Of a stretch of 64,000 nucleotides of DNA, positions 3,434-60,309 are shown piece after piece. The translations under genes and the position numbers were made by a program. The notes beneath the pieces were generated by a model, which saw only the letters and a list, made by a program, of their open reading frames with translations, was not told the origin of the DNA and ran no database searches. The DNA is from Deltaproteobacteria bacterium GWA2_38_16 (GTDB lineage: Bacteria > Bdellovibrionota > JACOXK01 > 2-02-FULL-40-11), in assembly GCA_001797335.1 (NCBI GenBank), contig MGPE01000005.1:153013-217012 (forward strand), read 5' to 3'. The number at the start of each line of letters is the position of its first letter. Position 1 is the first letter of the stretch.

Positions 3434-5210
3434 TTTTATGAGAGATGAAATCAGGATCTAAGGGTAATCCATCGGAATAGGCTATCGGAAAAATTTTAGG
3501 GGCAATGTCACAAAATTGTAATTTTATAAGAGTGGCCAATTGACTGTCTCGATTGTGATCAATGACAATGACTTTATCACAGGTTTTAATGAAATCTTTT
3601 ACTTCTTTATGGAAAGGGTAAGCTAAAACTCTAAGATATTTAAGAGATGTTTTCTTTATTTTTAAGTCATCCAGTGCTTCTTGAATGGCATGGTCATTGG
3701 TTCCTGCGCTAATAATTCCTATTTTAGCTTTGGCATCTCCTAAAACGATAGGTTTGGGTAAATATTGAGGGGCCGTATGAAATTTCTTTTCTAACCGAAG
3801 CATATTGGTTCTGTAAACGGTTGGATCTTCGGAATACCCTGCTATTTCTGTGTGTCCTGTCCCCCGTGTAAAATAAGCAGCCAGAGGATGTGGAGTGCCG
3901 GGTAGTGTTCGATAAGGGATTCCATCTTTATCAATATCTGCATATCGACCAAAGGATTTAATATTTTCTAAATCTTTAAGAGTGAGTACTTTTCCTCGAT
4001 CAAATGGACCTTTTAAATAATTAAAAGGTTCACTGGCCCAATAGTTCATTCCCAATTCTAAATCTGTCATGACAATAACGGGAGTTTGTAAACGATCAGC
4101 AATGTCGAATGATTTTGCTCCCAGCTCAAAGGCTTCTTTGACGGTGGCTGGGAATAAGAGAATATGTCTATTATCTCCATGAGAAGCAAAAGCACATTTT
4201 AAAATATCGGCTTGTTGGGTTCGTGTGGGCATCCCTGTAGAAGGTCCTACCCGTTGTACATTAACGATGACCACAGGAACTTCTGCATAATAGGCCAGTC
4301 CTAAAAATTCACTCATGAGTGAAATTCCAGGACCGGAGCTAGCCGTCATGGCACGCGCACCCATCCATCCTGCTCCAATGGCAGCACCAATGGCACAGAG
4401 CTCATCTTCTACTTGAATGACGGCTATTTTTTTCTTTTTTGTTTCAGGATCTGTTCGCAATCTTTGTCCATAGCTATCCATCGCTTCATTTAAAGAACTG
4501 GCCGGAGTAATGGGGTACCAAGCATCTACCGTACACCCTCCCATAATACACCCTAAAGCGGTGGCGGCATTGCCTTCGATGACAATCTGGGGTTTGGCGT
4601 TTTTGATTTTTTCATAAGAATAAGGATCTTTTTTGGGTAAATGTTCTTTGGCATATTGAATCCCCAGATCAATGGCTTTTAAATTGACATCAATGGCTTT
4701 TTGTTTTTTCTTAAAACTGTCTTCAATAACACTTCGTAAAATGTTTTTATCAAGGCCAAAAATTTCTGCCATCACTCCCACATAGAGCGTATTGGTGAGA
4801 AGCGATCTGAGTCTGGGGGTATCAAACGTATTTTTGGCAATCTTTGTAAGAGGAACAGGATAATAGGTAACGTTTTCTTTAGGAGTTCCAATGTTAAGAG
4901 TGGTTTCATCATAGATCACGACATCTCCTGGATGAACTTCTGCCAAGTCTTGACCCATAGAGGCAGGATTGACAGCTATGAGAACTTCTGAATGTCGTTT
5001 CATCGATTGATAGCCTTTGGGATTGGTCCGAATATAAAACCAGGTGGGAAGTCCTTGGATATTAGAAGGAAAAAGATTTTTAGCAGAGGTTGGAATACCC
5101 ATTCTGACCAAGGTTTTAAAAAGAATATTGTTTGCCGATTGGCTTCCCGTACCATTAATGGTTGCAATTTTAATGGTGAAGTTATTGACAATTTTTTGAG
5201 GCGTACTCAT
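3408..5210 (-). CDS. korA: 2-oxoacid:ferredoxin oxidoreductase alpha subunit, KorA-like
   Basis: 600 aa; N-terminal KIATINGTGSQSAN motif and length typical of KorA/OorA-type alpha subunits; translationally coupled to korB. Confidence 0.85.
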   Translation of the reverse strand: MSTPQKIVNNFTIKIATINGTGSQSANNILFKTLVRMGIPTSAKNLFPSNIQGLPTWFYIRTNPKGYQSMKRHSEVLIAVNPASMGQDLAEVHPGDVVIYDETTLNIGTPKENVTYYPVPLTKIAKNTFDTPRLRSLLTNTLYVGVMAEIFGLDKNILRSVIEDSFKKKQKAIDVNLKAIDLGIQYAKEHLPKKDPYSYEKIKNAKPQIVIEGNAATALGCIMGGCTVDAWYPITPASSLNEAMDSYGQRLRTDPETKKKKIAVIQVEDELCAIGAAIGAGWMGARAMTASSGPGISLMSEFLGLAYYAEVPVVIVNVQRVGPSTGMPTRTQQADILKCAFASHGDNRHILLFPATVKEAFELGAKSFDIADRLQTPVIVMTDLELGMNYWASEPFNYLKGPFDRGKVLTLKDLENIKSFGRYADIDKDGIPYRTLPGTPHPLAAYFTRGTGHTEIAGYSEDPTVYRTNMLRLEKKFHTAPQYLPKPIVLGDAKAKIGIISAGTNDHAIQEALDDLKIKKTSLKYLRVLAYPFHKEVKDFIKTCDKVIVIDHNRDSQLATLIKLQFCDIAPKIFPIAYSDGLPLDPDFISHKIEEAIAHG

Positions 5211-5766: not shown

Positions 5767-7259
5767 AAAATCTCACAAATGGGTTTTGCTTCGGGAATAA
5801 GTTTTACACCTCGAGAGAGTTTTTGGGACAATCCTTTAAAGTTTACAAAAGTTCCTTCTGTTTCGATAAAGGTAAGGGTGGGTAACAGGAGATCAAAAAG
5901 AGGGATTTGGTGCTTTACTTGGGTGCCAATATAAATTTTTGTTTTAAGGGAATTATTCTCTTTAAACCAGGATAAAAATTCTGGATAGGCTTCTAAATCA
6001 TGGGGGCCAAAAATAAATAATATTGTCCAAGGATCTGATTTTAATTTTTGTTGAAAAAGAGAGAGATTTTGTTCTTGAAGCTTATAGTGGGCGCTGATTT
6101 TAAGTAAGCCCTGTGAGTTTGGATTTTTATCTCGACGGAAAAGAAGCTCATCTGTAACGGTAGAGTCAGATGCAAGATGGGAATCTGCGCAATGAAAAAT
6201 ATTTTGGGTGCCAATGGTTTTGGTAAAAAAATCATATATGTGGGTGATGTCTTCTGATGTGTATTGAGGGGTAATGAGGACAGAAATTTGCGAAGCTGGT
6301 GTTTTAAAAATAGTAAATAATTCATGTTTTGTTTCATCCCATTCCGTAGGAATAAGCGTGGCTGCTTTTTTGATGAGAGGGGTAGAGATTCTTGATTCTC
6401 TGTGGGTATGTTTATACCGCATGCGTCCATAGTCACACATCCAATAGCCATTGACTTCTTCGTTAAAACGCGGGCGCATTCGATAGGTTCGTTTTTCAAT
6501 GGGATCTTGTGAGATAGTAACATTGCATCCAGTAGAACATCCCGGGCAAATAGATGGGATATCTTTTAAAAACCATACTCGCCTTTTAAATCGAAAATCA
6601 CGACTGGTGAGAGCACCGACAGGGCAAATATCGACACTATTTAAGGTGTAATTATTGTTCAAAGCTTTGTCTTCGTAGGTGCCAATTTCACTTCGGTCTC
6701 CTCGGTTAAAAATAGCCATTTCACTGGTTTTAGGAACTTCATCAAAAAAACGTACACACCGAGAGCATAGAATACATCGCTCGGTATCTAACATTACATG
6801 ATCCCCAATGGGGATAACTTTTCGTTTTTTTACTTTTTCTTCTTCCATGCGGCTCTCATATTTTCCAAATTGCATGTAATAATTTTGAAGACCGCATTCG
6901 CCGGCTTGATCGCAAATAGGACAATCAAGGGGATGATTGATAAGATGAAACGCAAGATTCCACTTTTGAATATTTTTAACAGTTTCAGTTTGAGTTTTAA
7001 CCACCATATTTTCAGTGACGGTGGCATTACATGAAATCAAAGGGCGGGGTTGGCCTTCGACTTCAACAAAGCACATGCGGCAACAGCCTGCGACGGATAA
7101 TCCAGGGTGGTAGCAGTAGTGAGGAACGGAAACGCCATTATCCAAAAGGGCTTTTAAGAGATTTCCGCCCTTTGGAGCTTCGATGACTTTTCCGTCAGCC
7201 GTAATTTTTACCATGGGATTCTTCGCTTTTGGCTCAGAATGACTTGTCATAAATGACAC
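5760..7259 (-). CDS. nuoG: NADH-quinone oxidoreductase subunit G (short form)
   Basis: N-terminal 2Fe-2S ferredoxin domain (MVKITADGKVIEAPKGGNLLKALL...CCRMCFVEV), HxxxCxxC and CxxCxxC..CP motifs; true start probably the internal MVKITADGK Met. Confidence 0.85.
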   Translation of the reverse strand: MSFMTSHSEPKAKNPMVKITADGKVIEAPKGGNLLKALLDNGVSVPHYCYHPGLSVAGCCRMCFVEVEGQPRPLISCNATVTENMVVKTQTETVKNIQKWNLAFHLINHPLDCPICDQAGECGLQNYYMQFGKYESRMEEEKVKKRKVIPIGDHVMLDTERCILCSRCVRFFDEVPKTSEMAIFNRGDRSEIGTYEDKALNNNYTLNSVDICPVGALTSRDFRFKRRVWFLKDIPSICPGCSTGCNVTISQDPIEKRTYRMRPRFNEEVNGYWMCDYGRMRYKHTHRESRISTPLIKKAATLIPTEWDETKHELFTIFKTPASQISVLITPQYTSEDITHIYDFFTKTIGTQNIFHCADSHLASDSTVTDELLFRRDKNPNSQGLLKISAHYKLQEQNLSLFQQKLKSDPWTILFIFGPHDLEAYPEFLSWFKENNSLKTKIYIGTQVKHQIPLFDLLLPTLTFIETEGTFVNFKGLSQKLSRGVKLIPEAKPICEILC

Positions 7260-8518
7260 CTTTTATTTTTAATATGGTACTCGAATTCCTGCTTAAACTT
7301 TGTCACAAAACTTTTTACCGGCATCGCAGCGGCATCTGAAAGGGCACAAATGGTTCTTCCCCCCATCATATTGGTACTAATGTCTTGAAGGAGAGGAATA
7401 TCTTCAGCTCTTCCTCGTTGATGAAGAATGCTATCCACTACTTTTTTCATCCATCCCGTTCCTTCTCGGCACGGAGTGCATTGACCACAGGATTCATGTT
7501 TATAAAAATACGTAATGACACTTAAAAGATCCACCATGCATTGGTCATTGGCAATGACAATCACGCCCCCAGATCCCAGCATGCTGCCTACTTTAGCTAA
7601 AGATTCAAAATCCATCGTCATCGTCATGGTTTCTTCAGCCGTTAACACAGGGGCTGAGAGTCCTCCGGGGATGACCGCTTTTAACTTTAAATTACCGGTG
7701 AGCCCTCCGCCGATATCGTAAATTAAATCTTTCAACGGAAAACCAAGGGGAAGTTCATAGGTTCCTGGATTTTTAACAGGGCCTGACAAGCAAAAAAGTT
7801 TTGTGCCGGGGCTTTTTTCTGTGCCTATTTTTTTATAATTGTCTGCTCCATTTAAAATAATCCAAGGAAGAACAGCCAGCGTTTCAACGTTATTAATGAC
7901 GGTGGGTTTTTTGTTAAATCCACTAATGGCAGGAAAAGGTGGTTTTACTTTAGGTTGCCCTTTGGCTCCTTCCATAGAGGTGACAAGTCCTGTTTCTTCT
8001 CCACAGATGTAAGCTCCCGCGCCTTTAAAAACATGAATATCAAGAGAAAACGGTGTGCCAAAGATATTTTTTCCTAAAAAATTATTTTTAGTGCATTCTT
8101 GAATGGCTGCTTCTAAAGCTTCGATCGATTCTGTATATTCTCCCCGAACATAAATATAGGCTCTGGGGCATTGGATAGCATAGCAGGCAATAATCATTCC
8201 TTCCAAAGTAGAATGCGGAATTTGCTCCATGAGAATTCTATCTTTAAAGGTTCCCGGTTCTCCCTCGTCTGCATTGCAGAGAAGGTATTTCAGGGGAGCA
8301 TCTTTAGGAACGAAAGACCATTTCATTCCCGTGCCAAAACCTGCGCCTCCTCGTCCTCGAAGGCCAGAGTTTTTAACAAGCGTAATAATGTCTTCTGGTT
8401 TTGTTTCTTTTAAAACTTTTTGGGCGGCTGTATATCCACCGTGCTCCCGGTAAACAGCGAGTTTTTTAATATTGGGGATATGTAGATTTTGAAAAACAAT
8501 TTTTGGCGTAGGTGTCAT
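7247..8518 (-). CDS. nuoF: NADH-quinone oxidoreductase subunit F (NADH/FMN-binding)
   Basis: GRGGAGFGTGMKW and C-terminal 4Fe-4S cysteine motif (ESCGQCTPCREG). Confidence 0.9.
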   Translation of the reverse strand: MTPTPKIVFQNLHIPNIKKLAVYREHGGYTAAQKVLKETKPEDIITLVKNSGLRGRGGAGFGTGMKWSFVPKDAPLKYLLCNADEGEPGTFKDRILMEQIPHSTLEGMIIACYAIQCPRAYIYVRGEYTESIEALEAAIQECTKNNFLGKNIFGTPFSLDIHVFKGAGAYICGEETGLVTSMEGAKGQPKVKPPFPAISGFNKKPTVINNVETLAVLPWIILNGADNYKKIGTEKSPGTKLFCLSGPVKNPGTYELPLGFPLKDLIYDIGGGLTGNLKLKAVIPGGLSAPVLTAEETMTMTMDFESLAKVGSMLGSGGVIVIANDQCMVDLLSVITYFYKHESCGQCTPCREGTGWMKKVVDSILHQRGRAEDIPLLQDISTNMMGGRTICALSDAAAMPVKSFVTKFKQEFEYHIKNKRCHL

Positions 8519-11920: not shown

Positions 11921-12601
11921 CTAAAGCAATAGTTCCAATAGGTGGGACTCTTCTGCTTTTTCCAAACTACTTTTTATCTTATTTTGCCACTTCTTAGGTA
12001 TTGAATTGAAGACTTTCTTAACTTCATCAATTTCATCATTATGTATGAGAGCATTTAAAATATCTATCCCGCTTTGGCGATCTTTTATGGCTTTATCTTC
12101 TTTCTGCCTTCGGTGCACTATAATGAGCTTATGCAAAGCATAGTAGATAGGATGAGGGAGTGTTATTACGAAGTTTTCTATTTCAACCTCAATCGTATGT
12201 TGAGCCAAAAAATCAAGAAATCGCAACGGCGTTGCATTAAGTCCTAACATGGGTAAAGGATGGGGTTTGTCACTTCCTCTCCCTTTTTCTGGCACCAAAA
12301 ATTCAAGCATGAGGTCTGGATGGTTTAATCTGATATATCCTTTTTCGCCTTGAAAACTTACAACAAATCCCAAATCTTTTAAGAGTAAAGGAATATCTAC
12401 TTTTTCTTTTATCTTATTTGGTGCATTAATTAGAAAATCAATATCTCGAGTTCGTAATGTGGTAAAACTCTTCTTTGAATGAAAATAATCTTTGTAAAAA
12501 GGAGCACACCAGCTTCCCACTAAAGTTAAATAATCCAAAATGCCGGTTTTGTGAAATCGCCTTAAAATTTCAAGGCATAATTCATATTGCTTCTTTTCCA
12601 C
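11921..12601 (-). CDS. nucleotidyltransferase-fold protein (minimal NTase motif GS...DxD)
   Basis: LVGSWCAPFY...TRDIDFL matches the hG[GS]...[DE]h[DE]h NTase signature; 226 aa. Confidence 0.5.
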   Translation of the reverse strand: MEKKQYELCLEILRRFHKTGILDYLTLVGSWCAPFYKDYFHSKKSFTTLRTRDIDFLINAPNKIKEKVDIPLLLKDLGFVVSFQGEKGYIRLNHPDLMLEFLVPEKGRGSDKPHPLPMLGLNATPLRFLDFLAQHTIEVEIENFVITLPHPIYYALHKLIIVHRRQKEDKAIKDRQSGIDILNALIHNDEIDEVKKVFNSIPKKWQNKIKSSLEKAEESHLLELLL

Positions 12602-12902
12602 GTAAAGTTCCTTTTAAAAACTTGATTTGTTTTTTGACTTGAGAAAGAAGATTTCTATATTTGGCTCTTAGTTTTTTAGCTTCTGCATACCTTTCAATTT
12701 CTTTTCTAGCTACTTTTCCTCTATAGACATATTTTACTTTTTTGCCGTAACGCTGAACCAGGTAATAATAATCATGCCCCCCTATCTTTCGAAGAGCTAA
12801 AGAACCCTTGGGGAGCTTTTTTAAGACACTCTCATATTGTCTCTTCATACGAAGAGAATTTCCAAGCTCTTCTTTTAAAACACCTTTAATAGGGCCTTTC
12901 AT
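12582..12902 (-). CDS. small basic protein, partner of the downstream NTase (20-bp overlap)
   Basis: 106-aa Lys/Arg-rich ORF overlapping the start of 11921..12601. Confidence 0.4.
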   Translation of the reverse strand: MKGPIKGVLKEELGNSLRMKRQYESVLKKLPKGSLALRKIGGHDYYYLVQRYGKKVKYVYRGKVARKEIERYAEAKKLRAKYRNLLSQVKKQIKFLKGTLRGKEAI

Positions 12903-12984: not shown

Positions 12985-14004
12985 CTACCGCTTATACCAC
13001 GCAACGCATAAAGTGGGATGATTAACGCTTCGTGCGGAGATGCCGATACGGCCATTACTACCATTGAAAGTAAAGGCACTACTATAGGATTTAGTCGGAT
13101 CAATTAATGTCGAGGTCCAATAGGCAACATCACTTGTTATATTGGGTAATACTTCACGAAAACCATTGACTTCCCCTCTTTCAAAATGTTGTCTTGTCGG
13201 AACTATTCTTCCCAAGCCACCGCAGGTCATTACCGAAACATCGTAATCAAACCTTCCAATGTTATCGCTCCAAATGAGGCCAGTAGTTAGATCCTTCCAT
13301 GCTTCTCCAAAGTCTGCGCGTTCTACTCGCTCAAAAATTCCACCTTTTGAAGTTTGGCATCTAAATCCAATGGGAACAGTTCTAAGATTAATAAAAGGAT
13401 CTGTACAAGATCTGATAGGAAAAGCAGGTGGACAAGGTGGTTCAATAATAATAGGTGGATATGGCGGCACAATGACTGGGGGCTGATTTACATTTGATAT
13501 TTGTACAATCCCTGCTGCAATTTCATTTAAATTTTCTTCATATTCAAAATCAAACCCAATCATATGTCCTACTTCATGGAGAAGAAGTGTTGCTAATTTT
13601 AAATGAGAATAGGGATCTGTTAAGTCTTGATCTATTTTTAATTGTCTTTTTGAATAATCATAAAGCGCTTCCATTCGAACCAATTTTCCATCTCTCTCAG
13701 CCATCAAGGGCTGATCTCCAGAGCTGGGAGATACAATCACAAATCTCATGGCTTTGGCTTTTCGTACCCAATCGTTATAGTTATCTAAGAGCATTTCTTT
13801 GGAGAGAGGGGCAATATCTAATTGACTAAAGGCTGCTTGATTTAGATTTTCTAAATATCCAATGGTTTGAAGTTTTGCTTCTTGAAGTAAAATTTCATAA
13901 GTGGATCCCCCATTCCCCACAGAATCTGCCTGTGAATAAAGTGGATTTAAAAATCCTACGAGGATCAAAAAAAGAAAAATATGTATATGCTTCATACTGC
14001 TCAC
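12985..14004 (-). CDS. secreted protein with HExxH zinc-peptidase motif and C-terminal DUF1566/Lcl-like domain
   Basis: Signal peptide; LLLHEVGHMIGFDF; Pro-rich linker PPVIVPPYPPIIIEPPCPP; C-terminal GLIWSD...AYWTSTLI pattern. Confidence 0.55.
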   Translation of the reverse strand: MSSMKHIHIFLFLILVGFLNPLYSQADSVGNGGSTYEILLQEAKLQTIGYLENLNQAAFSQLDIAPLSKEMLLDNYNDWVRKAKAMRFVIVSPSSGDQPLMAERDGKLVRMEALYDYSKRQLKIDQDLTDPYSHLKLATLLLHEVGHMIGFDFEYEENLNEIAAGIVQISNVNQPPVIVPPYPPIIIEPPCPPAFPIRSCTDPFINLRTVPIGFRCQTSKGGIFERVERADFGEAWKDLTTGLIWSDNIGRFDYDVSVMTCGGLGRIVPTRQHFERGEVNGFREVLPNITSDVAYWTSTLIDPTKSYSSAFTFNGSNGRIGISARSVNHPTLCVAWYKR

Positions 14005-14798
14005 TCCTTTGTTTGTTTTGATACAGGGAATAATTGGATTGAAAGCGTGTAAACACGTTTTTTCTCTCCAGATTCTAAAAATCGAGCCAATTTCTTCTTA
14101 AAATGAGTAATCATCTTTTCTGCTTCTCCTAATTTCTTAGGATCAAGGGCCATCGTAACAGAAGAAAACTTCCTATGCTCTAAGGATTCTACTTCCATGG
14201 CTTTTTCAGCGAGTTTAAAATTTTGTTTATGATATTTTTGAATGGCAGAAGAGGTAACACCTGGCTCTATATTAAGGGCGGTATTTAAAGCTCTCACTAA
14301 TCGTCCACTTTCTTCTTTAATGAAATTAAGTCTTTTTAAACGTAAAAGAGCGTCTCTTGCCTCTAAAACAGAAATCCCTAATTGATCTGAAATCCATTTG
14401 AGATCGGCTTTGTTTTGTTTAAGTTTAGCCAAGCTTAAAATAGCCAAATGGTACCAATCTGAGATTATAAGAAATTCATCATTTTTTAGCTGAAGCTCAT
14501 TAAAAGTATCTTTCTCCTCTAAACCATCATTATGAACCGATTTTATGAGTTCCTTTGTTTCAATAGGGCTTAAGGAGAAGCGTTTTGCAACTTTAAGTGT
14601 ATTTATTCTTGAAAACTTTCTTTTCCCAGAAAGAACTTGGGATAAGGCAGGTGGGCTGATCTCTAAAAACTTAGCGAAAGCTCTTAAAGAATAGCTACTA
14701 TTGGTTTCTTTTTTCTTTCGATATTCTGATAAGAGCCATCCTCGAAAATCGCTACTATATTGATTTATCTCGTACATAAAGCACGGCATAAATAGCAC
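14001..14798 (-). CDS. TIGR02147-like putative DNA-binding protein
   Basis: N-terminal SLRAFAKFLEISPPALSQVLSGKRKFS matches the family signature as I recall it. Confidence 0.55.
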   Translation of the reverse strand: MLFMPCFMYEINQYSSDFRGWLLSEYRKKKETNSSYSLRAFAKFLEISPPALSQVLSGKRKFSRINTLKVAKRFSLSPIETKELIKSVHNDGLEEKDTFNELQLKNDEFLIISDWYHLAILSLAKLKQNKADLKWISDQLGISVLEARDALLRLKRLNFIKEESGRLVRALNTALNIEPGVTSSAIQKYHKQNFKLAEKAMEVESLEHRKFSSVTMALDPKKLGEAEKMITHFKKKLARFLESGEKKRVYTLSIQLFPVSKQTKE

Positions 14799-15268
14799 AA
14801 GGTACTTTGAACTTCAATAGCTTATTTCATAAAGTGTTTCGACTTATCGAAACGTTATTCCGATGAACATTCTGAAAAAGGCATCGCTTACGACCATCAA
14901 ACTCGGACTAAGGATAAGCAGGCTTTATCCTGACTAAAAGTTTCTGGATTCCGGGTCTCGCTATGCTCACCCGGGATGACACGGTGTCAATACCAGCATG
15001 ACTTAGAGTATTTTATATCCCATCCAAACACTGCTTGAATCTTAATTATGTCTGACGGAAAATCGTCCGTATCATTCTAAGTCCGTCCGGAAAATCATTA
15101 AATTATTCAATGTTTTCAAGGAAGCACGTTGGCATGTGTTTTGTATGTAAAGGCTCTGTTAAGTGTCATTGACGATTCGTCGTATATATGCGACAATGGA
15201 GGTGTTTGAATGGATGAGGCTAAAGTTGCGGTTCGATATGCGTTAGCCAATGGAAAAGGAGTTTTGGA

Positions 15269-15580
15269 ATGACTACAAGAAAACTAAGAAGCAATGAAGA
15301 AGCCCTTATAGGGGAGTTAAAAAATTCTCAAGAGGCAGCTGCATATCTTTCTGCAGCTTTAGAGGAGAACGATTTAGATATTTTTTTACTTGCTCTGAGA
15401 AGAGTGGCACAAGCTCAAGGAGTTACAAAGATCTCCACAGAAACATCTTTAAATCGGCAACATATTTATCGAGCTTTAAGTCGAAATGGAAATCCAACAT
15501 TAAAAAATCTCATGGCTATTCTCTCAGCTCTCGATTTTGAATTAGAAGTTAAACCAAGAAAAAAGGCTGTTAATGACTAA
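15269..15580 (+). CDS. HigA-family addiction-module antidote protein (HI1420-like), apparently orphan
   Basis: 103 aa; RRVAQAQGVTKISTETSLNRQHIYRALSRNGNPTLKNLMAILSAL strongly resembles the HI1420-type antitoxin HTH region. Confidence 0.7.
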   Translation: MTTRKLRSNEEALIGELKNSQEAAAYLSAALEENDLDIFLLALRRVAQAQGVTKISTETSLNRQHIYRALSRNGNPTLKNLMAILSALDFELEVKPRKKAVND

Positions 15581-15592
15581 GGGTGATTGGTA

Positions 15593-15904
15593 TCATTCGC
15601 TAACGGTAACACAAACAGAAAAAGGTTTTTCGGCTTTTTCTCTGAGGCCTAAAACGGGTGTTGATATAGAACCCATTGTGGTCATGGGATAGGTAGTGCC
15701 TGCAGTTCCGATAATTTGTCTGGCACGTAGCATTCCATTAAGTTCTCTAGAAGCCATTTCCCACCCATCACTACTTTCTGCACACATAACGCCCCAGGAC
15801 TTAAAGCTACCTGCAATTTTTCGATTTTCTTTTTTTTCCGCTGCGTAAGTGTTTGTAAAAACAAAAGATAACATCAATAGCAAAAAACTTATTTTATATT
15901 TCAT
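15593..15904 (-). CDS. small secreted hypothetical protein
   Basis: Signal peptide MKYKISFLLLMLSFVFTNTYA; 103 aa. Confidence 0.4.
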   Translation of the reverse strand: MKYKISFLLLMLSFVFTNTYAAEKKENRKIAGSFKSWGVMCAESSDGWEMASRELNGMLRARQIIGTAGTTYPMTTMGSISTPVLGLREKAEKPFSVCVTVSE

Positions 15905-16079
15905 AGTAGTCTCTCCCCTTTATTTGTCTTTTCGGAAAATGGGTGGAATTCTTTAGGGTAAATTATTTACCCGCTGCCTGTTAAGTGCTCCTATCTTCAA
16001 GAACGTCGGACGGTTTTCCGTCCGCATTTTTTTCCATTTAAGCTCAAAACCCATGGCACGTGCTTTGCATGTATAAGGT

Positions 16080-16427
16080 TTGGAGGAAAATTTTATGCCG
16101 TCAAAAAGAACTTTAGAATGGAGAGATAAACAAAAGGGATATATTGAACGGTGGAAAAAGACGATTTTAGAATTGCGTTCACGCTCTTTTTTGGAAAGAT
16201 GGAATGAAGATAAATATGAAATGGAGCTTCTTCAATGTCTTGAAAATCAAACTTTAAAAGATGTTTTTATTTTCGCTAAGAATTATGTTATGAGAGTTAA
16301 AAGTGGGAAATTTAGAACTCTAATGACAGAGGTTAATAGAGAAATTAAAGAATGTGGGACTGTTGAACCCAGTAGGTTAAATTTCTTGAAACATAGAATT
16401 GAAATAGTGAAGGAGAAGATGAAATGA
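16080..16427 (+). CDS. hypothetical small protein (TTG start)
   Basis: 115-aa ORF; stop overlaps start of next ORF (ATGA). Confidence 0.4.
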   Translation: MEENFMPSKRTLEWRDKQKGYIERWKKTILELRSRSFLERWNEDKYEMELLQCLENQTLKDVFIFAKNYVMRVKSGKFRTLMTEVNREIKECGTVEPSRLNFLKHRIEIVKEKMK

Positions 16428-16690
16428 GTACAAAAAAGAAAAATGCTTTTGATGTTGATCAATATTGGAAAAGAATAACGGATGGAGCAAAAATGGATTC
16501 TGATGTAGATGAAGAGATGCAACAAATTTTCCAAGAATTTGAACGCAGCGTGGATAATATGGGCGAAGAAGAAAAAGAAAAATTAAGACAAGTTTTTGTA
16601 AAATGCGATGAAGATGCCAAGGCAGATCGAGCCCATCAAAAAAGAAAATCCAAGAAAAAGATTAATACTGAGATTTTTCCTCTTCGTTGA
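16424..16690 (+). CDS. hypothetical small charged protein
   Basis: 88-aa ORF translationally coupled to 16080..16427; acidic core, basic C-terminus. Confidence 0.4.
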   Translation: MSTKKKNAFDVDQYWKRITDGAKMDSDVDEEMQQIFQEFERSVDNMGEEEKEKLRQVFVKCDEDAKADRAHQKRKSKKKINTEIFPLR

Positions 16691-16726
16691 CAAAGTGGGG
16701 TTTCTCTCGTATATTGGCCCTCTTTT

Positions 16727-18049
16727 ATGAGTAGATTTTGGGCAATTTTTCTTCTCCCTGTTTTTTTATTTTCATTAATAATTTCAACGGGTTGTGTTAA
16801 TCCAGACGAAAAAACAGAAATTAATATTGAAAGCCTCTTGGGAGGGCTGGGACTTACTTCTAGTATATTTGAAGAGGAGCCCCAAACACAATTAGGCACA
16901 TTGGTTTTTTATCGTTCAGAGCGGGTAGTAAAAGAGCTCTGTGAGCGATTTCAATTTAAAGGAACGTCAGACTATGCCATTCAAATTTCAGGAAAACTGG
17001 CCCAAGATATTTTAGATCACCTGGCTTATTTTTCAAAAGGCACTCTTAAAAGTGATGAAGCAGGGGTGGTCTATCTCTTTGGAGAAATTGCTCAGGATTT
17101 GTATCAGGAATTACACTCCATATTTACGATTGATGATATTTTTTATTTTGAAGGAAAAGAAATGGTGGTGGTGAGTGGTGCAGAAGCACTTTCTCTCTTA
17201 GGATTCGCAAAAGAAAAATTAGCAATATATTATGCCCAAACTCCTCAAAAAGTAGAAAGAGTTTTTGTGGCTTCTTATGAAGATGCCAGACAATGGACCA
17301 AAAATTTTCTGTTAGAATTTTATGAAGATTTAAGTATTGGATTTTCAACAAACCCCGTTAAAGTGGTCGATGCTTTGGCCGATGTAGGACATTTTGGATT
17401 GGGAGGTATTGGGCGAGTTATTTTATTAACGGGAGAAATCTGGGTGATTTCTTTTGATTCCGTCAGTAAATTAGGGGCTTTTCTAACGGGGGGAGAGTTG
17501 ATACCCGAAAGTATTCTTATTCGAAAAACAGTAAAAGGAGCTGCAGAAATAGGGTATCTCGTAGCTTCTGATGTTTCCGAGATTTTTAGGATGGCCAGTG
17601 GAGAAAAGCGTCATGGTTTTATAGAAACCGAAAATGGAGGGATATTAACCAATCCCCTCATTACGATTGATATTGCTAGCCAAACGTTGAGAAATGCTAC
17701 GTTTACATCAGATGCTGTAGTGCACTATGCCTCAGAAATGACGATTGGATATATTTCAGATAATTTAGAACTTTTAGGAGAGTTTTTAAATTTAGCTCAT
17801 GAAAATATTGTGGGAGATTTGTTGATTTTTGTAGGGGATAGCTTGTCTCGAGGGATTCATATTACCAGTCTTGGTTTAAGAGCGATTATTCATTTGGGAG
17901 GAAATAGTGTGAGTGCTTTGGTGGGTGCTTTTTCTTTTGAGAAACCTCTGGATGCAAAACTGACTCATTGTAAAAACATTTGGGACGTATTTCGAGATGA
18001 TATGATTGGGTTGTGGCATGAACTCATGAAGTTCTTACGGCTGCGGTGA
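16727..18049 (+). CDS. hypothetical lipoprotein
   Basis: Signal peptide with lipobox-like LIISTGC; 440 aa. Confidence 0.5.
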   Translation: MSRFWAIFLLPVFLFSLIISTGCVNPDEKTEINIESLLGGLGLTSSIFEEEPQTQLGTLVFYRSERVVKELCERFQFKGTSDYAIQISGKLAQDILDHLAYFSKGTLKSDEAGVVYLFGEIAQDLYQELHSIFTIDDIFYFEGKEMVVVSGAEALSLLGFAKEKLAIYYAQTPQKVERVFVASYEDARQWTKNFLLEFYEDLSIGFSTNPVKVVDALADVGHFGLGGIGRVILLTGEIWVISFDSVSKLGAFLTGGELIPESILIRKTVKGAAEIGYLVASDVSEIFRMASGEKRHGFIETENGGILTNPLITIDIASQTLRNATFTSDAVVHYASEMTIGYISDNLELLGEFLNLAHENIVGDLLIFVGDSLSRGIHITSLGLRAIIHLGGNSVSALVGAFSFEKPLDAKLTHCKNIWDVFRDDMIGLWHELMKFLRLR

Positions 18050-46246: not shown

Positions 46247-46253
46247 AAATCCG

Positions 46254-46718
46254 TCATTCCCGACTCGATCGGGAATCCAGTCTCCTTACCTTAAAATAAG
46301 AAAGTAAAATAATAAAGAAAATTGGAAAATCAATAGCAGCTCCTAATCCATAGAGAAGATTTTCGGTTCGAAAAAGCGCACCCATAAAAAAAATACTGCT
46401 GCTGATTTTTGCGATTAATACCCCTCTGATAGCACTATGGTTTAAAGGAAATTTTGAACCTTCATAAGAAAGGTAGGAAATGGTCATCATCATCGATCCG
46501 GCCAGTGCCACCCAAAAGTATTCACTATTTAAAGGAAGTCCCAAAAGGCGCAACGTCATATCAGGGCGGATGACAAAAAAAAGGCCAACACCTAGAAAGC
46601 AAATAGACCAAAAAAGCATTTCTTTTTGAAATATTTTTAAAGTCACAGAAAGTACTATGAACTTAAAATCGTAAAGATGCAACGAGAGATAATAAAACCT
46701 ACCCATGCTTCGTTTCAT
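46254..46718 (-). CDS. small hypothetical membrane protein (true start may be the internal Met MLFWS)
   Basis: Hydrophobic ORF; annotated N-terminus is encoded by direct-repeat copy 1, so the start is uncertain. Confidence 0.35.
   Translation of the reverse strand: MKRSMGRFYYLSLHLYDFKFIVLSVTLKIFQKEMLFWSICFLGVGLFFVIRPDMTLRLLGLPLNSEYFWVALAGSMMMTISYLSYEGSKFPLNHSAIRGVLIAKISSSIFFMGALFRTENLLYGLGAAIDFPIFFIILLSYFKVRRLDSRSSRE
46663..46696. repeat. 34-bp perfect direct repeat, copy 1 (left boundary of the TA cassette)
   Basis: TTAAAATCGTAAAGATGCAACGAGAGATAATAAA identical to 47735..47768. Confidence 0.8.
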
Positions 46719-49611: not shown

Positions 49612-51165
49612 ATGAGCCATCATATAACATTAGCTATTTTAGTGGGGGGGGCTTCTCGTCGAATGGGGACTTCTCAAGACAAAGGGCTTTTATCTGTCCA
49701 TGGGGAGGCTTTAGTTTATCGTCTCATTAGAAAACTTTCTTTTTTATTTCAAGAAATCTTAATTATTTGTTCTTCGGAAACTCAAAAACAAAAATATGAT
49801 TTCGTGCTCGGAATGACACCTCAGATTATTGTGGATGAAAGTGGGAGTGATCGAGCGGCGTATTATGGACTGTGTGCAGCGCTTAAACAGAGTTCCACAG
49901 AAAAAGTGTTGGTGATTCCGGTAGATGCTCAAGGGGTGGATCCAGGTGTTATTAAAAAACTTCTATTGTCTCCCTCATTTCCTGTTGCCTATGAAAATAC
50001 ACCTTTCCCATCGGTGTGGCTCAAACAACATTTATCTTTTGTCATTCCGAGCACGAAGTGCGAGGAATCCCTAAGTATTTTAGATCTTTTGAAAAAACTT
50101 TCTACGACCTGGATACGTCCCACAGAGTGTGAAGACATACTTTTAAAAATGAATTTAAATACGAGAGAAGATGTTCGAAACTATTTTGGAGAGCCTCTGT
50201 GCGATTCTTGGGGGAGACAATTAAATTACTTAAGACTTTCTCTAACTGAATCGTGCAACATGGCATGCCAATATTGCTTGCCCAAAGGTTTTCATCAATC
50301 AACCCATGAACAGATGCTGACTCAAACCGCCCAGGTTATTTTAAAAGCGTTTCGAAAGTTAGGGTTTGAAAAAGTGCGTTTTACTGGCGGTGAGCCTACG
50401 CTTCATCCGGGACTTTTGTATCTTATTTCGGATGCTCGGTCCTTGGGATACGAAACTATTTCTCTCACTACCAATGGAAGTTTTATTCAAGATCTTACGT
50501 CTTTAATAGAGGCTGGGCTTACCCATATCAATATCAGTTTAGATACCCTAGATCCTACGACATTTCAAAAACTTACAGGGAGTCATTATCTATCTAAAAT
50601 TTTGGGTCTTATTGATGAGGCCTTAGAGAAGGGATTAAATGTAAAATTGAATACGGTTCTTCTTCGGGAGATTAATTTAAATCACATAGAACCATTACTC
50701 CATTGGGCGAAAGATCGCCCCTTAACCCTTCGGTTTATTGAACTTATGCCAATTCAAAATCACACAGAGTTTTTTAACAGAAATTTTGTTTCAAATACCG
50801 AAATTCAGTCTTTGGTTCGATCGTTGGGGTATGCGCCTATCTGTCATCCCCGACTTGATCGGGGATCCATGGAACCTTTAGGCCCCGCGGTTTTGTGGTC
50901 TCATCCAGAGTTTTTGGCCAAAGTAGGTTTTATCAGTCCTTGGTCGTGTAATTTCTGTGATCGCTGCAATCGATTGCGGGTGACTGCCAGAGCACATCTT
51001 CGTTTATGTTTATTTGGAAAAGAAGAGATAAAACTTCCGGCAGAACAAGGAGATGAAGTGGTGAGTCAATTTATTCGATCGGTTCTTCATCAAAAGCCCC
51101 TCTCGCATGATTTAGAAAAAGGGGATAGAGGAAGTTTAAGTTATTTTAAAGTAGTGGGAGGATAA
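49612..51165 (+). CDS. moaA: fused MobA-like molybdenum cofactor guanylyltransferase / MoaA GTP 3',8-cyclase (radical SAM)
   Basis: N-terminal AILVGGASRRMGTSQDKGLL (MobA motif); C-terminal CNMACQYC (CxxxCxxC) and auxiliary cluster cysteines CNFCDRCNR...C. Confidence 0.8.
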   Translation: MSHHITLAILVGGASRRMGTSQDKGLLSVHGEALVYRLIRKLSFLFQEILIICSSETQKQKYDFVLGMTPQIIVDESGSDRAAYYGLCAALKQSSTEKVLVIPVDAQGVDPGVIKKLLLSPSFPVAYENTPFPSVWLKQHLSFVIPSTKCEESLSILDLLKKLSTTWIRPTECEDILLKMNLNTREDVRNYFGEPLCDSWGRQLNYLRLSLTESCNMACQYCLPKGFHQSTHEQMLTQTAQVILKAFRKLGFEKVRFTGGEPTLHPGLLYLISDARSLGYETISLTTNGSFIQDLTSLIEAGLTHINISLDTLDPTTFQKLTGSHYLSKILGLIDEALEKGLNVKLNTVLLREINLNHIEPLLHWAKDRPLTLRFIELMPIQNHTEFFNRNFVSNTEIQSLVRSLGYAPICHPRLDRGSMEPLGPAVLWSHPEFLAKVGFISPWSCNFCDRCNRLRVTARAHLRLCLFGKEEIKLPAEQGDEVVSQFIRSVLHQKPLSHDLEKGDRGSLSYFKVVGG

Positions 51166-60185: not shown

Positions 60186-60309
60186 GGGTTTGCCACAATT
60201 GCAATAAGAATGCCATTCTAACCTATTGAAATCATTTGTTTTTATAATATTCTTTTTGCCTATTTTTTAGCTATTGTTTAGACCTTGGACAGCCGATAAG
60301 TAGAGTAAG

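What the first reader, a model, noticed from the sequence alone, without database searches (positions are those of the whole stretch)
14799..16090. Orphan HigA-like antitoxin with no recognisable toxin, and related GC-rich motifs in two promoter regions
The HI1420-type antitoxin normally follows its toxin. Here the 470-bp upstream region has no toxin-sized ORF, only a 19-codon ORF whose stop overlaps the antitoxin ATG (ATGA), which may be a toxin remnant. That region and the one upstream of the 16080 ORF share CGGACGG/CCGTCCG-AAAA hairpins and a CACGTnGCATGT...GTATaAGG segment, suggesting duplicated fragments or shared operators.
Basis: partly seen in the sequence, partly recalled or inferred. 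Interest (0 to 1): 0.5.

Follow-up and report, generated by a model that had tools for sequence, protein, structure and literature searches.

The report
Toxin-deleted antitoxin gene plus sigma-54 promoters
A toxin-antitoxin gene pair has lost 248 bases from the middle of its toxin gene, leaving a lone antitoxin that still looks functional, and the GC-rich motifs nearby are one intact and one decayed copy of a sigma-54 promoter cassette found in front of many genes in this bacterium; both are ordinary kinds of feature, now explained.

Summary
Both parts of the observation are real.

**Orphan antitoxin.** ORF 15269..15580 is an HI1420-type antitoxin (TIGR02684, 69.8 bits against a cutoff of 53.7). 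Its closest relative (89% identical, L009) has an intact 110-aa HI1419/Gp49 toxin directly upstream. The window keeps toxin codons 1-16 (15210-15257) and, in another frame, the last 14 codons (15250-15291). A 248-nt internal deletion between 9/10-matching repeats AATGG[A/C]AAAG removed the rest. The 20-codon ORF is therefore a toxin remnant. The sigma-70-type promoter, the palindromic operator, the antitoxin's ribosome-binding site and all family-invariant residues are intact.

**GC-rich motifs.** It is perfect at 16054 (TGGCAC-N5-TTGCA). At 15130 it is degenerate (TGGCAT-N5-TTGTA). The CGGACGG-N4-CCGTCCG palindrome at 16007 belongs to a ~75-nt cassette (hairpin, T-run, second palindrome, sigma-54 box). 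That cassette is near-identical upstream of a paralogue in the same genome. It also precedes a YifB/ComM-type ATPase gene, a Flp-pilin-like gene, and a secretin / ATPase / sigma-54-activator operon in related low-GC contigs.

The copy in front of the antitoxin is a stretched, decayed version of this cassette.

**Verdict:** a decayed toxin-antitoxin module beside members of a sigma-54 regulon. Known kinds of feature, modest interest.

The parts
15169..15197 (+). Sigma-70-type promoter of the toxin-antitoxin cassette: -35 TTGACG (15169-15174), 17-nt spacer, TGc-extended -10 GACAAT (15192-15197). This is the left edge of homology with intact modules.
   Evidence: Consensus scan. TTGAC and the -10 region are invariant in windows of six loci. 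DNA homology with L009/L010/L012 begins here.
15179..15194 (.). Palindromic operator GTCGTAT-AT-ATGCGAC, lying between -35 and -10. It is the presumed binding site of the antitoxin.
   Evidence: GTCG...ATGCGAC is invariant in six loci. It is a perfect 7-2-7 palindrome GTCGCAT-TT-ATGCGAC in L010 and L049. Binding is inferred, not tested.
15210..15272 (+). 20-codon remnant ORF: toxin codons 1-16, then 4 out-of-frame codons and a TGA that overlaps the antitoxin ATG. A GGAGGTG ribosome-binding site lies at 15198-15204.
   Evidence: MDEAKVAVRYALANGK is 14/16 identical to residues 1-16 of the L009 toxin. Sequence read directly.
15249..15258 (+). Deletion junction AATGGAAAAG. 248 nt (L009 4739..4986, toxin codons about 17-98) are missing, and the reading frame is shifted.
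   Evidence: Global alignment. L009 carries AATGGAAAAG at the left breakpoint and AATGGCAAAG at the right.
15250..15297 (+). 3' remnant of the toxin gene in its original frame (MEKEFWNDYKKTKKQ*). It overlaps the antitoxin's ribosome-binding site AAGGAG (15256-15261) and its start codon.
   Evidence: 13/14 identical to residues 97-110 of the L009 toxin.
15269..15580 (+). Intact orphan antitoxin gene of the HI1420 family (HigA-like, XRE-type helix-turn-helix), 103 aa.
   Evidence: PF21716 and TIGR02684 hits. All 15 invariant family residues are kept. dN/dS 0.105 against L009. AlphaFold model pLDDT 87.9, with XRE helix-turn-helix proteins as top fold matches.
15052..15069 (.). Degenerate copy of the cassette palindrome: CTGACGG-AAAA-TCGTCCG, one mismatch in each arm.
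   Evidence: nhmmer hits only this piece, E 0.22.
15083..15089 (+). Extra CCGTCCG half-site, followed by GAAAAT.
15130..15153 (+). Degenerate sigma-54 -24/-12-like box TGGCAT-GTGTT-TTGTA plus TGTA-AAGG. The -12 GC has become GT. A transcription start, if any, would fall near 15156, 13 nt before the toxin-antitoxin -35 box.
   Evidence: Spacing to the palindrome is 60 nt, against 29 nt in all intact copies.
16007..16024 (.). Perfect palindrome / hairpin CGGACGG-TTTT-CCGTCCG of the intact cassette, at about -73 to -56. A T-run follows at 16027-16033.
   Evidence: RNA fold z-score -4.9. Identical in 8 distinct cassette copies.
16037..16048 (.). Second, AT-rich palindrome TTTAAGCTCAAA (TTTGAGCTCAAA in most copies), at about -43 to -32.
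   Evidence: Alignment of cassette copies.
16054..16069 (+). Perfect sigma-54 promoter TGGCAC-GTGCT-TTGCA. Predicted transcription start near 16080.
   Evidence: The only zero-mismatch match in 64 kb. Conserved upstream of a paralogue (L016) and an orthologue (L013).
16095..18049 (+). Downstream operon driven by the intact cassette: 110-aa (16095..16427), 88-aa (16424..16690) and 440-aa (16727..18049) proteins of unknown function. Ribosome-binding site GGAGG at 16082-16086.
   Evidence: No Pfam or NCBIfam family assigned.

Best explanation
The locus is a decayed type II toxin-antitoxin cassette of the HI1419/HI1420 (HigB/HigA-like) family, and it sits next to sigma-54 promoter cassettes.

**1. 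Toxin loss.** The cassette runs 15169-15580: promoter, toxin, antitoxin. A 248-nt deletion between two 10-nt near-repeats (AATGG[A/C]AAAG) removed toxin codons about 17-98 and shifted the frame. This looks like slippage or microhomology-mediated deletion. It left a 20-codon ORF that ends on the antitoxin's start codon.

Everything the antitoxin needs was spared:
- the sigma-70-type promoter;
- the 16-bp palindromic operator;
- its own ribosome-binding site, which starts inside the junction repeat;
- its reading frame.

The most likely present state is a lone helix-turn-helix repressor that binds its own operator and is made at a low, self-limited level. It may neutralise related incoming or paralogous toxins (the anti-addiction model). 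Expression, operator binding and neutralisation are inferred. The deletion and the conservation are shown.

**2. GC-rich motifs.** They belong to a ~75-nt promoter cassette with four parts in order:
- hairpin/palindrome CGGACGG-TTTT-CCGTCCG;
- a T-run;
- palindrome TTTGAGCTCAAA;
- sigma-54 box TGGCAC-N5-TTGCA.

The copy at 16007-16069 is intact and drives the 110/88/440-aa operon. The palindromes are the likely binding sites of a sigma-54 activator (inferred). The hairpin plus T-run may also stop read-through.

The copy at 15052-15153, just upstream of the toxin-antitoxin cassette, is a diverged local relative. It has lost the canonical spacing and the critical -12 C, so it is probably weak or dead.
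For: **Toxin-antitoxin module**
- Family hits for the antitoxin and for the toxin of relatives (TIGR02683 113.8 bits, PF05973).
- An intact toxin lies directly upstream of the antitoxin in L009/L010 (89% identical), L049, L051 and L012.
- Both ends of the toxin are found in the window in two frames.
- A single 248-nt gap with 9/10 microhomology.
- Promoter and operator are invariant in six loci.
- Invariant residues are kept. dN/dS is 0.105.
- The predicted fold is XRE helix-turn-helix-like.
- The deletion is identical in 8 assemblies from different samples.
- An independent toxin pseudogene sits beside an intact antitoxin in L011.
- Orphan antitoxins as degraded modules, and the anti-addiction idea, are described in PMC7354431.

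**Sigma-54 cassette**
- The perfect consensus is unique in the window.
- The paralogue in the same MAG has the same 80-nt upstream region although the proteins are only 56% identical.
- The orthologue L013 keeps TGGCAC-N5-TTGCT plus CGTCC repeats without hairpin potential.
- The metagenome scan found the same cassette in front of these genes:
  - a YifB/ComM-type ATPase gene;
  - a secretin / FHA-ATPase / FHA-sigma-54-activator operon (PF00158, 6.7e-71);
  - a Flp-like pilin gene;
  - small proteins of unknown function.
- The profile of 8 copies scores the 16007 copy at 78.9 bits.
- The two other sigma-54 sites looked at, window 60200 and L016 6927, lack the CCGTCC palindrome.
- The consensus tGGcacg / tTGCt and the requirement for an activator are given in PMC4641369.

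**Region 15052-15153**
- Significance tests.
- Its N5 and downstream bases (GTGyT ... TGTA-AAGG) match the neighbouring copy better than any other copy.
Against: - No expression data exist. Operator binding by the antitoxin is assumed from conservation and position only.
- dN/dS covers the whole divergence from L009, not only the time since the deletion. All sampled populations are identical, so ongoing selection on the orphan gene is not demonstrated.
- Fold matches have weak E-values (0.6-2), although probabilities reach 0.98.
- The hairpin centre is only about 39 nt upstream of the -24 GG. Classical activator sites lie 100 bp or more upstream (PMC4641369).
- In 4 of 8 copies the hairpin follows a co-directional gene, with gaps of 2 to 206 nt, as a terminator would.
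- The scan required an exact palindrome, so its invariance among the copies found is partly by design.
- Neither rpoN nor an activator gene is in the window. The activator that was found is on a contig of a related genome, not shown to be the same species.
- The full-cassette profile does not recognise region 15052-15153 as a unit.
Confidence: 0.8

Rival explanations
1. Region 15052-15153 is a working sigma-54 promoter, not a dead one. The orphan antitoxin would then be co-transcribed under the same activator as the cassette regulon, as a regulator or as a guard against the paralogous toxin that lies behind a cassette-driven YifB/ComM-type ATPase gene.
For: - The motifs are in the right order and on the right strand, ending 13-24 nt before the toxin-antitoxin -35 box.
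- The extra spacing is 31 nt from the full palindrome and 11 nt from the half-site. These are close to whole helical turns.
- A contig shown to be from the same genome by 99.97-100% identity (L043 against L016) places an intact HI1419 toxin directly behind a cassette-driven YifB/ComM gene. That toxin is 51% identical to the L009 toxin.
Against: - The -12 GC is GT, and the -24 hexamer also carries a C to T change.
- Spacing differs from all 8 intact copies, which are invariant at 29 nt.
- The second palindrome TTTGAGCTCAAA is absent.
- The profile HMM does not detect the region.
- The toxin-antitoxin cassette has its own conserved promoter.
Confidence: 0.2
2. The CGGACGG-TTTT-CCGTCCG hairpin plus T-run is an intrinsic terminator that insulates the sigma-54 promoter from upstream transcription. 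It would not be an activator-binding site. The activator would bind elsewhere, for example at TTTGAGCTCAAA.
For: - The terminator scan flags it.
- It is a strong hairpin, z-score -4.9.
- In L045 and L037 it starts 2 and 19 nt after a co-directional gene.
- It lies unusually close to the promoter for an activator site.
Against: - In 4 of 8 copies, including the window, the upstream gene is divergent, so there is nothing to terminate.
- The orthologous promoter in L013 keeps CGTCC/GGACG words as direct repeats and as a loop-less palindrome. These cannot form this hairpin.
- The copy at 15052 has non-compensatory arm changes and no T-run.
- The two roles are not mutually exclusive.
Confidence: 0.35
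3. The ~75-nt cassette is a propagating repeat (a mobile promoter or miniature element). Its copies are alike because they spread recently, not because every position is selected. Region 15052-15153 would be an old copy decaying by AT-biased mutation.
For: - Near-identity extends over positions between the recognisable motifs, and across unrelated downstream genes.
- There are at least 4 intact copies in one genome (window, L016/L043, L037, L045).
- All three mismatches in the -24/-12 box at 15130 are C to T.
- A different short GC-rich hairpin repeat family exists in the same genome, and abuts the cassette in four copies.
Against: - No target-site duplications, terminal repeats or transposase were found.
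- The only flanking repeat, the 10-mer CTGTTAAGTG, is not significant (356 of 5000 shuffles).
- The cassette is conserved at a paralogous gene pair whose proteins have diverged to 56% identity. That argues for long-term selection.
Confidence: 0.2
4. The similarity between the two upstream regions is chance in an AT-rich genome, and the short ORF is a chance ORF.
For: - The heptamer alone is not enriched.
- The flank similarity beyond the palindrome in reverse orientation is not significant: 19/56, matched by 14% of offsets.
Against: toxin ends at 88-93% identity; 0 of 300 shuffled windows; conservation elsewhere.
Confidence: 0.02

Closest known systems
HI1419/HI1420 type II toxin-antitoxin modules (NCBIfam TIGR02683 toxin of the RelE/ParE superfamily, Pfam Gp49 PF05973; TIGR02684 / PF21716 antitoxin), commonly annotated HigB/HigA-like
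   Same: - The antitoxin scores above the curated cutoffs.
- Gene order is toxin first.
- The 26-nt toxin/antitoxin overlap seen in relatives is still visible as the 3' toxin remnant.
- The promoter carries a palindromic operator.
   Different: - The toxin gene is destroyed by a 248-nt internal deletion and frameshift, so this is not a functional toxin-antitoxin system.
- No member of this family has a solved structure detectable by sequence.
Orphan antitoxins as remnants of degraded modules, and the anti-addiction model (reviewed in PMC7354431)
   Same: - An antitoxin gene is retained intact after loss of its toxin.
- A second lineage (L011) shows an independent toxin pseudogene beside an intact antitoxin.
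- The same genome carries a paralogous toxin that could be a target.
   Different: - Here the exact deletion, its microhomology and the spared regulatory signals can be reconstructed from an 89%-identical intact relative.
- No evidence for cross-neutralisation was obtained.
Sigma-54 (RpoN) promoters with upstream activator sites for enhancer-binding proteins (consensus tGGcacg-N4-tTGCt, PMC4641369)
   Same: - The 16054 site has a perfect GG-N10-GC geometry and consensus.
- It is conserved in a paralogue and an orthologue.
- Palindromes lie upstream.
- An activator gene lies in one operon driven by the same cassette.
   Different: - The conserved palindromes lie at about -73 to -32, much closer than the usual 100 bp or more.
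- The whole 75-nt unit is nearly invariant between unrelated genes.
- The distal palindrome doubles as a terminator-like hairpin.
Rho-independent terminators
   Same: A 7-bp GC-rich stem, a 4-nt loop, and a T-run 2 nt after the stem at 16007-16033.
   Different: - Half of the copies have no co-directional gene upstream.
- The stem sequence itself, not just the pairing, is conserved.

Membership tests
HI1420-type antitoxin (TIGR02684 / PF21716) | Profile HMM score above the curated cutoff | tested here: met
   TIGR02684 69.8 bits against a cutoff of 53.7. PF21716 68.3 bits against 27.
HI1420-type antitoxin (TIGR02684 / PF21716) | Family-invariant residues and an XRE-type helix-turn-helix fold | tested here: met
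   All 15 invariant columns are kept. The AlphaFold model has pLDDT 87.9 and six helices. The top 50 Foldseek PDB hits include HipB (probability 0.98), S. pneumoniae HigA 6af3 (0.97), M. tuberculosis HigA2 and C-proteins, but E-values are only 0.6-2.
Functional type II toxin-antitoxin module (HI1419/HI1420) | Intact cognate toxin gene immediately upstream, overlapping the antitoxin start | tested here: not met
   Only toxin codons 1-16 and the last 14 remain, in different frames. 248 nt are deleted. No other toxin-like ORF is adjacent.
Functional type II toxin-antitoxin module (HI1419/HI1420) | Autoregulated promoter with a palindromic operator bound by the antitoxin | tested here: inconclusive
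   The promoter and the GTCGyAT-N2-ATGCGAC palindrome are conserved in six loci. Binding cannot be tested with these tools.
Sigma-54-dependent promoter | GG at -24 and GC at -12 with exact spacing (TGGCAC-N5-TTGCW) | tested here: met
   16054-16069 matches with 0 mismatches and is the only such site in 64 kb. It is conserved in L016 and L013.
Sigma-54-dependent promoter (copy at 15130) | GG at -24 and GC at -12 with exact spacing | tested here: not met
   TGGCAT-N5-TTGTA. The GG is present and the spacing is right, but the -12 GC is GT.
Sigma-54-dependent promoter | Dependence on RpoN and an enhancer-binding ATPase | not testable with these tools
   The window has no GAFTGA-type activator. An FHA / sigma-54-activator / HTH_8 protein is encoded in a cassette-driven operon on a related contig (L038).
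Enhancer-binding-protein upstream activating sequence | Conserved inverted repeat upstream of the promoter, usually 100 bp or more away | tested here: inconclusive
   The inverted repeats are conserved in 8 copies. They lie at about -73 to -56 and -43 to -32, closer than typical.
Intrinsic terminator | GC-rich hairpin followed by a U-run, downstream of a co-directional gene | tested here: inconclusive
   Hairpin plus T-run is met at 16007-16033. An upstream co-directional gene is present in 4 of 8 copies, but not in the window. The 15052 copy has no T-run.

The most novel reading that the evidence does not exclude
The ~75-nt unit (GC hairpin, T-run, AT palindrome, sigma-54 -24/-12 box) may be a self-contained terminator-plus-promoter cassette that has been copied in front of unrelated genes. 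It would thereby be assembling a regulon in an uncultured low-GC "Deltaproteobacteria" lineage. The genes involved are:
- Flp-pilus / secretin genes together with their own activator;
- a YifB/ComM-type ATPase gene followed by a toxin-antitoxin pair;
- small proteins of unknown function.

The stretch in front of the orphan antitoxin would be a cassette copy caught in decay. The orphan antitoxin may survive because it neutralises the paralogous, cassette-driven HI1419 toxin in the same genome.
Probability: 0.15. Interest if true: 0.55.

Novelty: new member of a known kind. Interest (0 to 1): 0.3.

Why it matters
**Annotation.** The gene should be labelled an orphan antitoxin of a decayed HI1419/HI1420 module, not a toxin-antitoxin system. 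The 110-aa ORF starts at 16095, behind a sigma-54 promoter.

**Toxin-antitoxin decay.** This is a clean, fully reconstructed example of how these modules decay:
- the toxin goes first;
- it is lost by a microhomology deletion;
- the deletion stops exactly where the antitoxin's translation signals begin.

A second lineage shows the same direction of decay.

**The regulon.** The by-product is probably more useful than the original finding. A highly conserved sigma-54 cassette links Flp-pilus / secretin genes, a YifB/ComM-type ATPase gene and several unknown small proteins in an uncultured lineage. This gives a testable regulon and a candidate activator.

Tried and rejected
- **Rfam.** A permissive scan of 14000-17000 gave only a spurious Xist hit at E 2. 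There is no known RNA family here.
- **Genome-contig scan** for palindrome plus sigma-54 box. It returned 15 hits, all in genomes of 46-71% GC that are unrelated to this lineage and are read as chance or unrelated sites. The window's own site was not returned, so this genome is evidently not in that collection.
- **Metagenome-contig scan** with a 24-mer specific to the 15130 box. It found nothing, so no "empty site" or alternative context could be recovered.
- **The 822-bp block as an insertion.** The idea was that 15166-15987 (toxin-antitoxin cassette plus the 103-aa gene) inserted with a 10-bp target duplication CTGTTAAGTG (15156 and 15978). The shared 10-mer occurs in 7% of shuffles. In L009 the cassette's right flank is unrelated. 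Not supported, not excluded.
- **A complete cassette on the minus strand at 15052.** Similarity beyond the palindrome is 19/56, no better than 14% of random offsets. Rejected.
- **Solved structures.** Sequence searches for the antitoxin and the toxin found none.
- **A second close toxin in this MAG.** The toxin homologue search named none among the top 120. The paralogous toxin was found only through the cassette scan.
- **Literature.** A search for Flp pilus, FHA and sigma-54 activator returned nothing relevant.
- **L041.** The 87-aa ORF behind a cassette looked MqsR-like by eye, but has no Pfam or NCBIfam hit. No claim is made.
Full report
**Source and setting.** The window matches contig MGRU01000030.1 of the metagenome-assembled genome "Deltaproteobacteria bacterium GWA2_38_16" (GCA_001798315.1). 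Local G+C is mostly 30-45%. The antitoxin protein is listed in 44 blocks of the collection. Eight fetched contigs from NCBI, ENA and JGI assemblies are 99.96-100% identical to the window across the locus. What follows is therefore not an assembly artefact.

**Checking the observation.**
- ORF 15269..15580 (+, 103 aa) is an HI1420-type antitoxin: PF21716 E 5.4e-19, and TIGR02684 69.8 bits against a cutoff of 53.7.
- Between the divergent DUF4423 gene (14001..14798, minus strand) and the antitoxin there is no + strand ORF of 30 aa or more.
- The short ORF runs 15210..15272. It has 20 sense codons, is preceded by GGAGGTG (15198-15204), and ends in a TGA that shares its TG with the antitoxin ATG.
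- The shared motifs are real.

**What happened to the toxin.**
- The closest relative of the antitoxin is P0002, 89% identical. On contig L009 it sits behind an intact 110-aa gene that overlaps it by 26 nt. That protein is an HI1419-type RelE/ParE-superfamily toxin (TIGR02683 113.8 bits, PF05973).
- A tblastn search of this toxin against the window gives two hits:
  - residues 1-16 on 15210-15257 (MDEAKVAVRYALANGK, 14/16 identical);
  - residues 97-110 on 15250-15291 in a different frame (MEKEFWNDYKKTKK, 13/14 identical).
- A global DNA alignment shows a single gap. L009 positions 4739..4986, 248 nt, are missing from the window.
- L009 reads AATGGAAAAG at the left breakpoint and AATGGCAAAG at the right. 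The window has one copy, AATGGAAAAG (15249-15258). This is the signature of deletion between short direct repeats.
- 248 is not a multiple of three. The remnant therefore reads four out-of-frame codons and stops on the ATGA.

**What was spared.**
- Homology with intact modules starts exactly at the -35 hexamer TTGACG (15169) and ends at the antitoxin stop. The cassette is minimal.
- Six loci share TTGACA-N4-GTCGyAT-N2-ATGCGAC-wrT. This is a sigma-70-type promoter whose spacer and -10 region are occupied by a 16-bp palindrome. The palindrome is perfect in L010 and L049. In the window it has one arm mismatch (GTCGTATATATGCGAC, 15179-15194).
- The antitoxin's ribosome-binding site AAGGAG (15256-15261) begins inside the junction repeat. 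The deletion removed nearly all of the toxin gene that could go without touching antitoxin translation.
- The antitoxin keeps all 15 invariant columns of a 24-sequence family alignment.
- dN/dS against L009 is 0.105.
- The AlphaFold model is confident (pLDDT 87.9, six helices). Its best PDB matches include HipB, S. pneumoniae HigA, M. tuberculosis HigA2 and restriction-modification controller proteins, all XRE-type helix-turn-helix repressors. E-values are only 0.6-2.
- I infer a lone, self-repressing antitoxin that is still expressed. Neither expression nor binding is shown.

**How common this is.**
- Among relatives with enough upstream sequence, the toxin is intact in L009/L010, L049, L051 and L012.
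- In L011 (antitoxin 71% identical) the toxin is a pseudogene with a stop and a frameshift, beside an intact antitoxin.
- The direction of decay, toxin first, is the expected one. Losing the antitoxin of a live module is lethal. Losing the toxin is harmless. This is established reasoning about type II systems.
- The review PMC7354431 reports that most orphan antitoxins in one large survey are remnants of degraded modules, and discusses the anti-addiction idea.

**The GC-rich motifs.**
The copy at 16054-16069, TGGCAC-GTGCT-TTGCA, is a perfect sigma-54 -24/-12 promoter. The consensus tGGcacg / tTGCt is given in PMC4641369. It is the only zero-mismatch site in 64 kb.
- The predicted transcription start is near 16080. 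GGAGG lies at 16082-16086 and the ATG at 16095, so the ORF starts at 16095, not at the TTG at 16080. Gene callers agree.
- The 110-aa protein has a 56%-identical paralogue on another contig of the same assembly, GCA_001798315.1 (L016). Its upstream region is almost the same over 80 nt: CGGACGGTTTTCCGTCCa, cATTTTTcgCATTTtAAGCTCAAAACCCc, TGGCACaggcTTTGCA.
- A 61%-identical orthologue (L013) keeps TGGCAC-N5-TTGCT. It also has CGTCC words as direct repeats and as the loop-less palindrome CGTCCGGACG.

**The cassette is multi-copy.**
- A metagenome scan for GGACGGTTTTCCGTCC-N(20-45)-TGGCAC returned 11 low-GC loci carrying the same ~75-nt unit, always with 29 nt between hairpin and TGGCAC.
- The downstream genes are:
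  - the 110-aa paralogue;
  - a YifB/ComM-type ATPase (TIGR00368), followed by an intact HI1419 toxin and an 84-aa ORF;
  - a 165-aa coiled-coil protein;
  - a 111-aa protein;
  - a Flp-pilin-like protein (below the Pfam cutoff);
  - an operon of secretin, FHA-domain T2SSE ATPase and an FHA / sigma-54-activator / HTH_8 protein (PF00158, E 6.7e-71).
- Contig Ga0209211_10000055 carries three copies. It is 99.97-100% identical to L016, so it is the same genome as the window.
- Two other sigma-54 sites, at window 60200 and L016 6927, lack the CCGTCC palindrome. The palindrome marks a subset of sigma-54 promoters, as a regulon-specific site would.

**What the hairpin does is not settled.**
- It is a strong hairpin followed by a T-run. 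In four of eight copies it follows a co-directional gene, twice within 20 nt. That fits a terminator.
- In the other four copies, including the window, the upstream gene is divergent. The L013 promoter keeps the words but not the hairpin. That fits a protein site.
- Its position, about -73 to -56, is closer than classical activator sites.
- I rate "activator site, possibly also an insulator" above "terminator only", but not by much.

**The copy in front of the antitoxin.** Region 15052-15153 holds three pieces, in cassette order:
- the palindrome with one mismatch per arm (15052-15069);
- an extra CCGTCCG half-site (15083-15089);
- the box TGGCAT-GTGTT-TTGTA (15130-15145).

The spacing is 60 nt instead of 29, the AT palindrome is missing, and the -12 GC is GT.

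- The resemblance is not chance. Such a palindrome is expected 0.19 times per window at 3 or fewer mismatches. The pairing of palindrome and box occurs in 0 of 300 shuffled windows.
- A profile of eight intact copies scores the 16007 copy at 78.9 bits. It finds only the palindrome of the 15052 copy, at E 0.22.
- The N5 and the bases after the box match the neighbouring copy better than any other copy. That points to a local duplication. All three differences within the -24/-12 box are C to T.
- I read it as a decayed or at best weak copy. A sigma-54 start at about 15156 that reads into the antitoxin cannot be excluded (rival, 0.2).

**Comparison with known systems, and novelty.**
- The antitoxin is a member of the HI1420 family.
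- The locus is not a functional toxin-antitoxin system, because the defining toxin gene is destroyed.
- The 16054 site meets the sequence definition of a sigma-54 promoter. The 15130 site does not.
- Orphan antitoxins from degraded modules, and sigma-54 promoters with upstream palindromes, are both well known.
- What is new here is descriptive. One item is the exact reconstruction of the deletion. The other is the recognition of a compact, highly conserved sigma-54 cassette shared by pilus, YifB/ComM-type and unknown genes in an uncultured lineage.
- Interest is modest (0.3). The most novel reading still open is a propagating terminator-promoter cassette that is building a regulon. I give it about 0.15.

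Noticed in passing
window 14946-14980 (+), 46253-46278 (-), 50041-50070 (-), 50843-50868 (-); L041 993-1011: A family of short GC-rich hairpin repeats, GGATYCC-loop-GGRATGAC, occurs 4 times in the window against 0.03 expected. Two copies lie in frame inside ORF 49612..51165, a MobA-like + radical-SAM MoaA fusion. One sits between the two parts and one inside the Mob_synth_C domain, reminiscent of palindromic elements inserted in coding genes. A minimal version abuts the sigma-54 cassette hairpin in four cassette copies.
   Followed up: partly
window 14910-14925; L007 1-633; L006 start: Contig L007 (JGI 3300025317) is identical to the window only from 14925 rightwards. To the left it carries a pterin-4a-carbinolamine dehydratase gene that is absent from the window. 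Contig L006 ends at 14910. This is either a structural variant or an assembly break point, just upstream of the GC-rich hairpin.
   Followed up: partly
L045 (contig Ga0209211_10000055, same genome as the window): minus strand 6726-8234, 6402-6713, 6119-6370: A sigma-54 cassette drives a YifB/ComM-type ATPase gene. It is followed 10 nt later by an intact HI1419-type toxin (TIGR02683 92.9 bits, 51% identical to the L009 toxin) and an 84-aa ORF with no family hit. This is a paralogous toxin that the orphan antitoxin might meet.
   Followed up: partly
L038 5446-9287; L039 6909-7148: In a related low-GC contig the same cassette precedes two units. One is a secretin / FHA-T2SSE ATPase / FHA-sigma-54-activator operon. 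The other, separately, is a Flp-pilin-like gene. The activator is a candidate regulator of the cassette regulon.
   Followed up: partly
window 11921..12601 (-) and 12582..12902 (-): An NTP_transf_8 nucleotidyltransferase gene (PF12281, 2.7e-22) overlaps a small DUF6788 gene. This may be another toxin-antitoxin-like pair 2.5 kb from the orphan antitoxin.
   Followed up: no
window 14001..14798 (-); L016 3233..4060 (+): Both paralogous 110-aa/88-aa operons lie near a DUF4423 (helix-turn-helix-containing) gene that is followed by a gene for a larger protein with no family hit. The association may be functional.
   Followed up: no
window 60200-60215 (-): A second good sigma-54 box, TGGCATTCTTATTGCA, lies about 21 nt upstream of the ATG of the gene ending at 59118. 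It has no CCGTCC palindrome upstream.
   Followed up: partly
window 15156-15165 and 15978-15987: The exact 10-mer CTGTTAAGTG flanks the 822-bp block that holds the toxin-antitoxin cassette and the 103-aa secreted-protein gene. It is a tempting target-site duplication, but it occurs in 7% of shuffles.
   Followed up: yes
L011 4756-5020: An independent toxin pseudogene (internal stop plus frameshift) lies upstream of an intact antitoxin that is 71% identical to the window's. It is in a contig rich in other toxin-antitoxin genes (PIN, PhdYeFM, DUF4258/DUF2283).
   Followed up: yes
window 15957-15973: A perfect 8-1-8 palindrome GGGTAAAT-T-ATTTACCC lies in the divergent promoter region between the 103-aa gene and the sigma-54 cassette. 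The word AGCGGGTAA recurs upstream of the L016 cassette.
   Followed up: no
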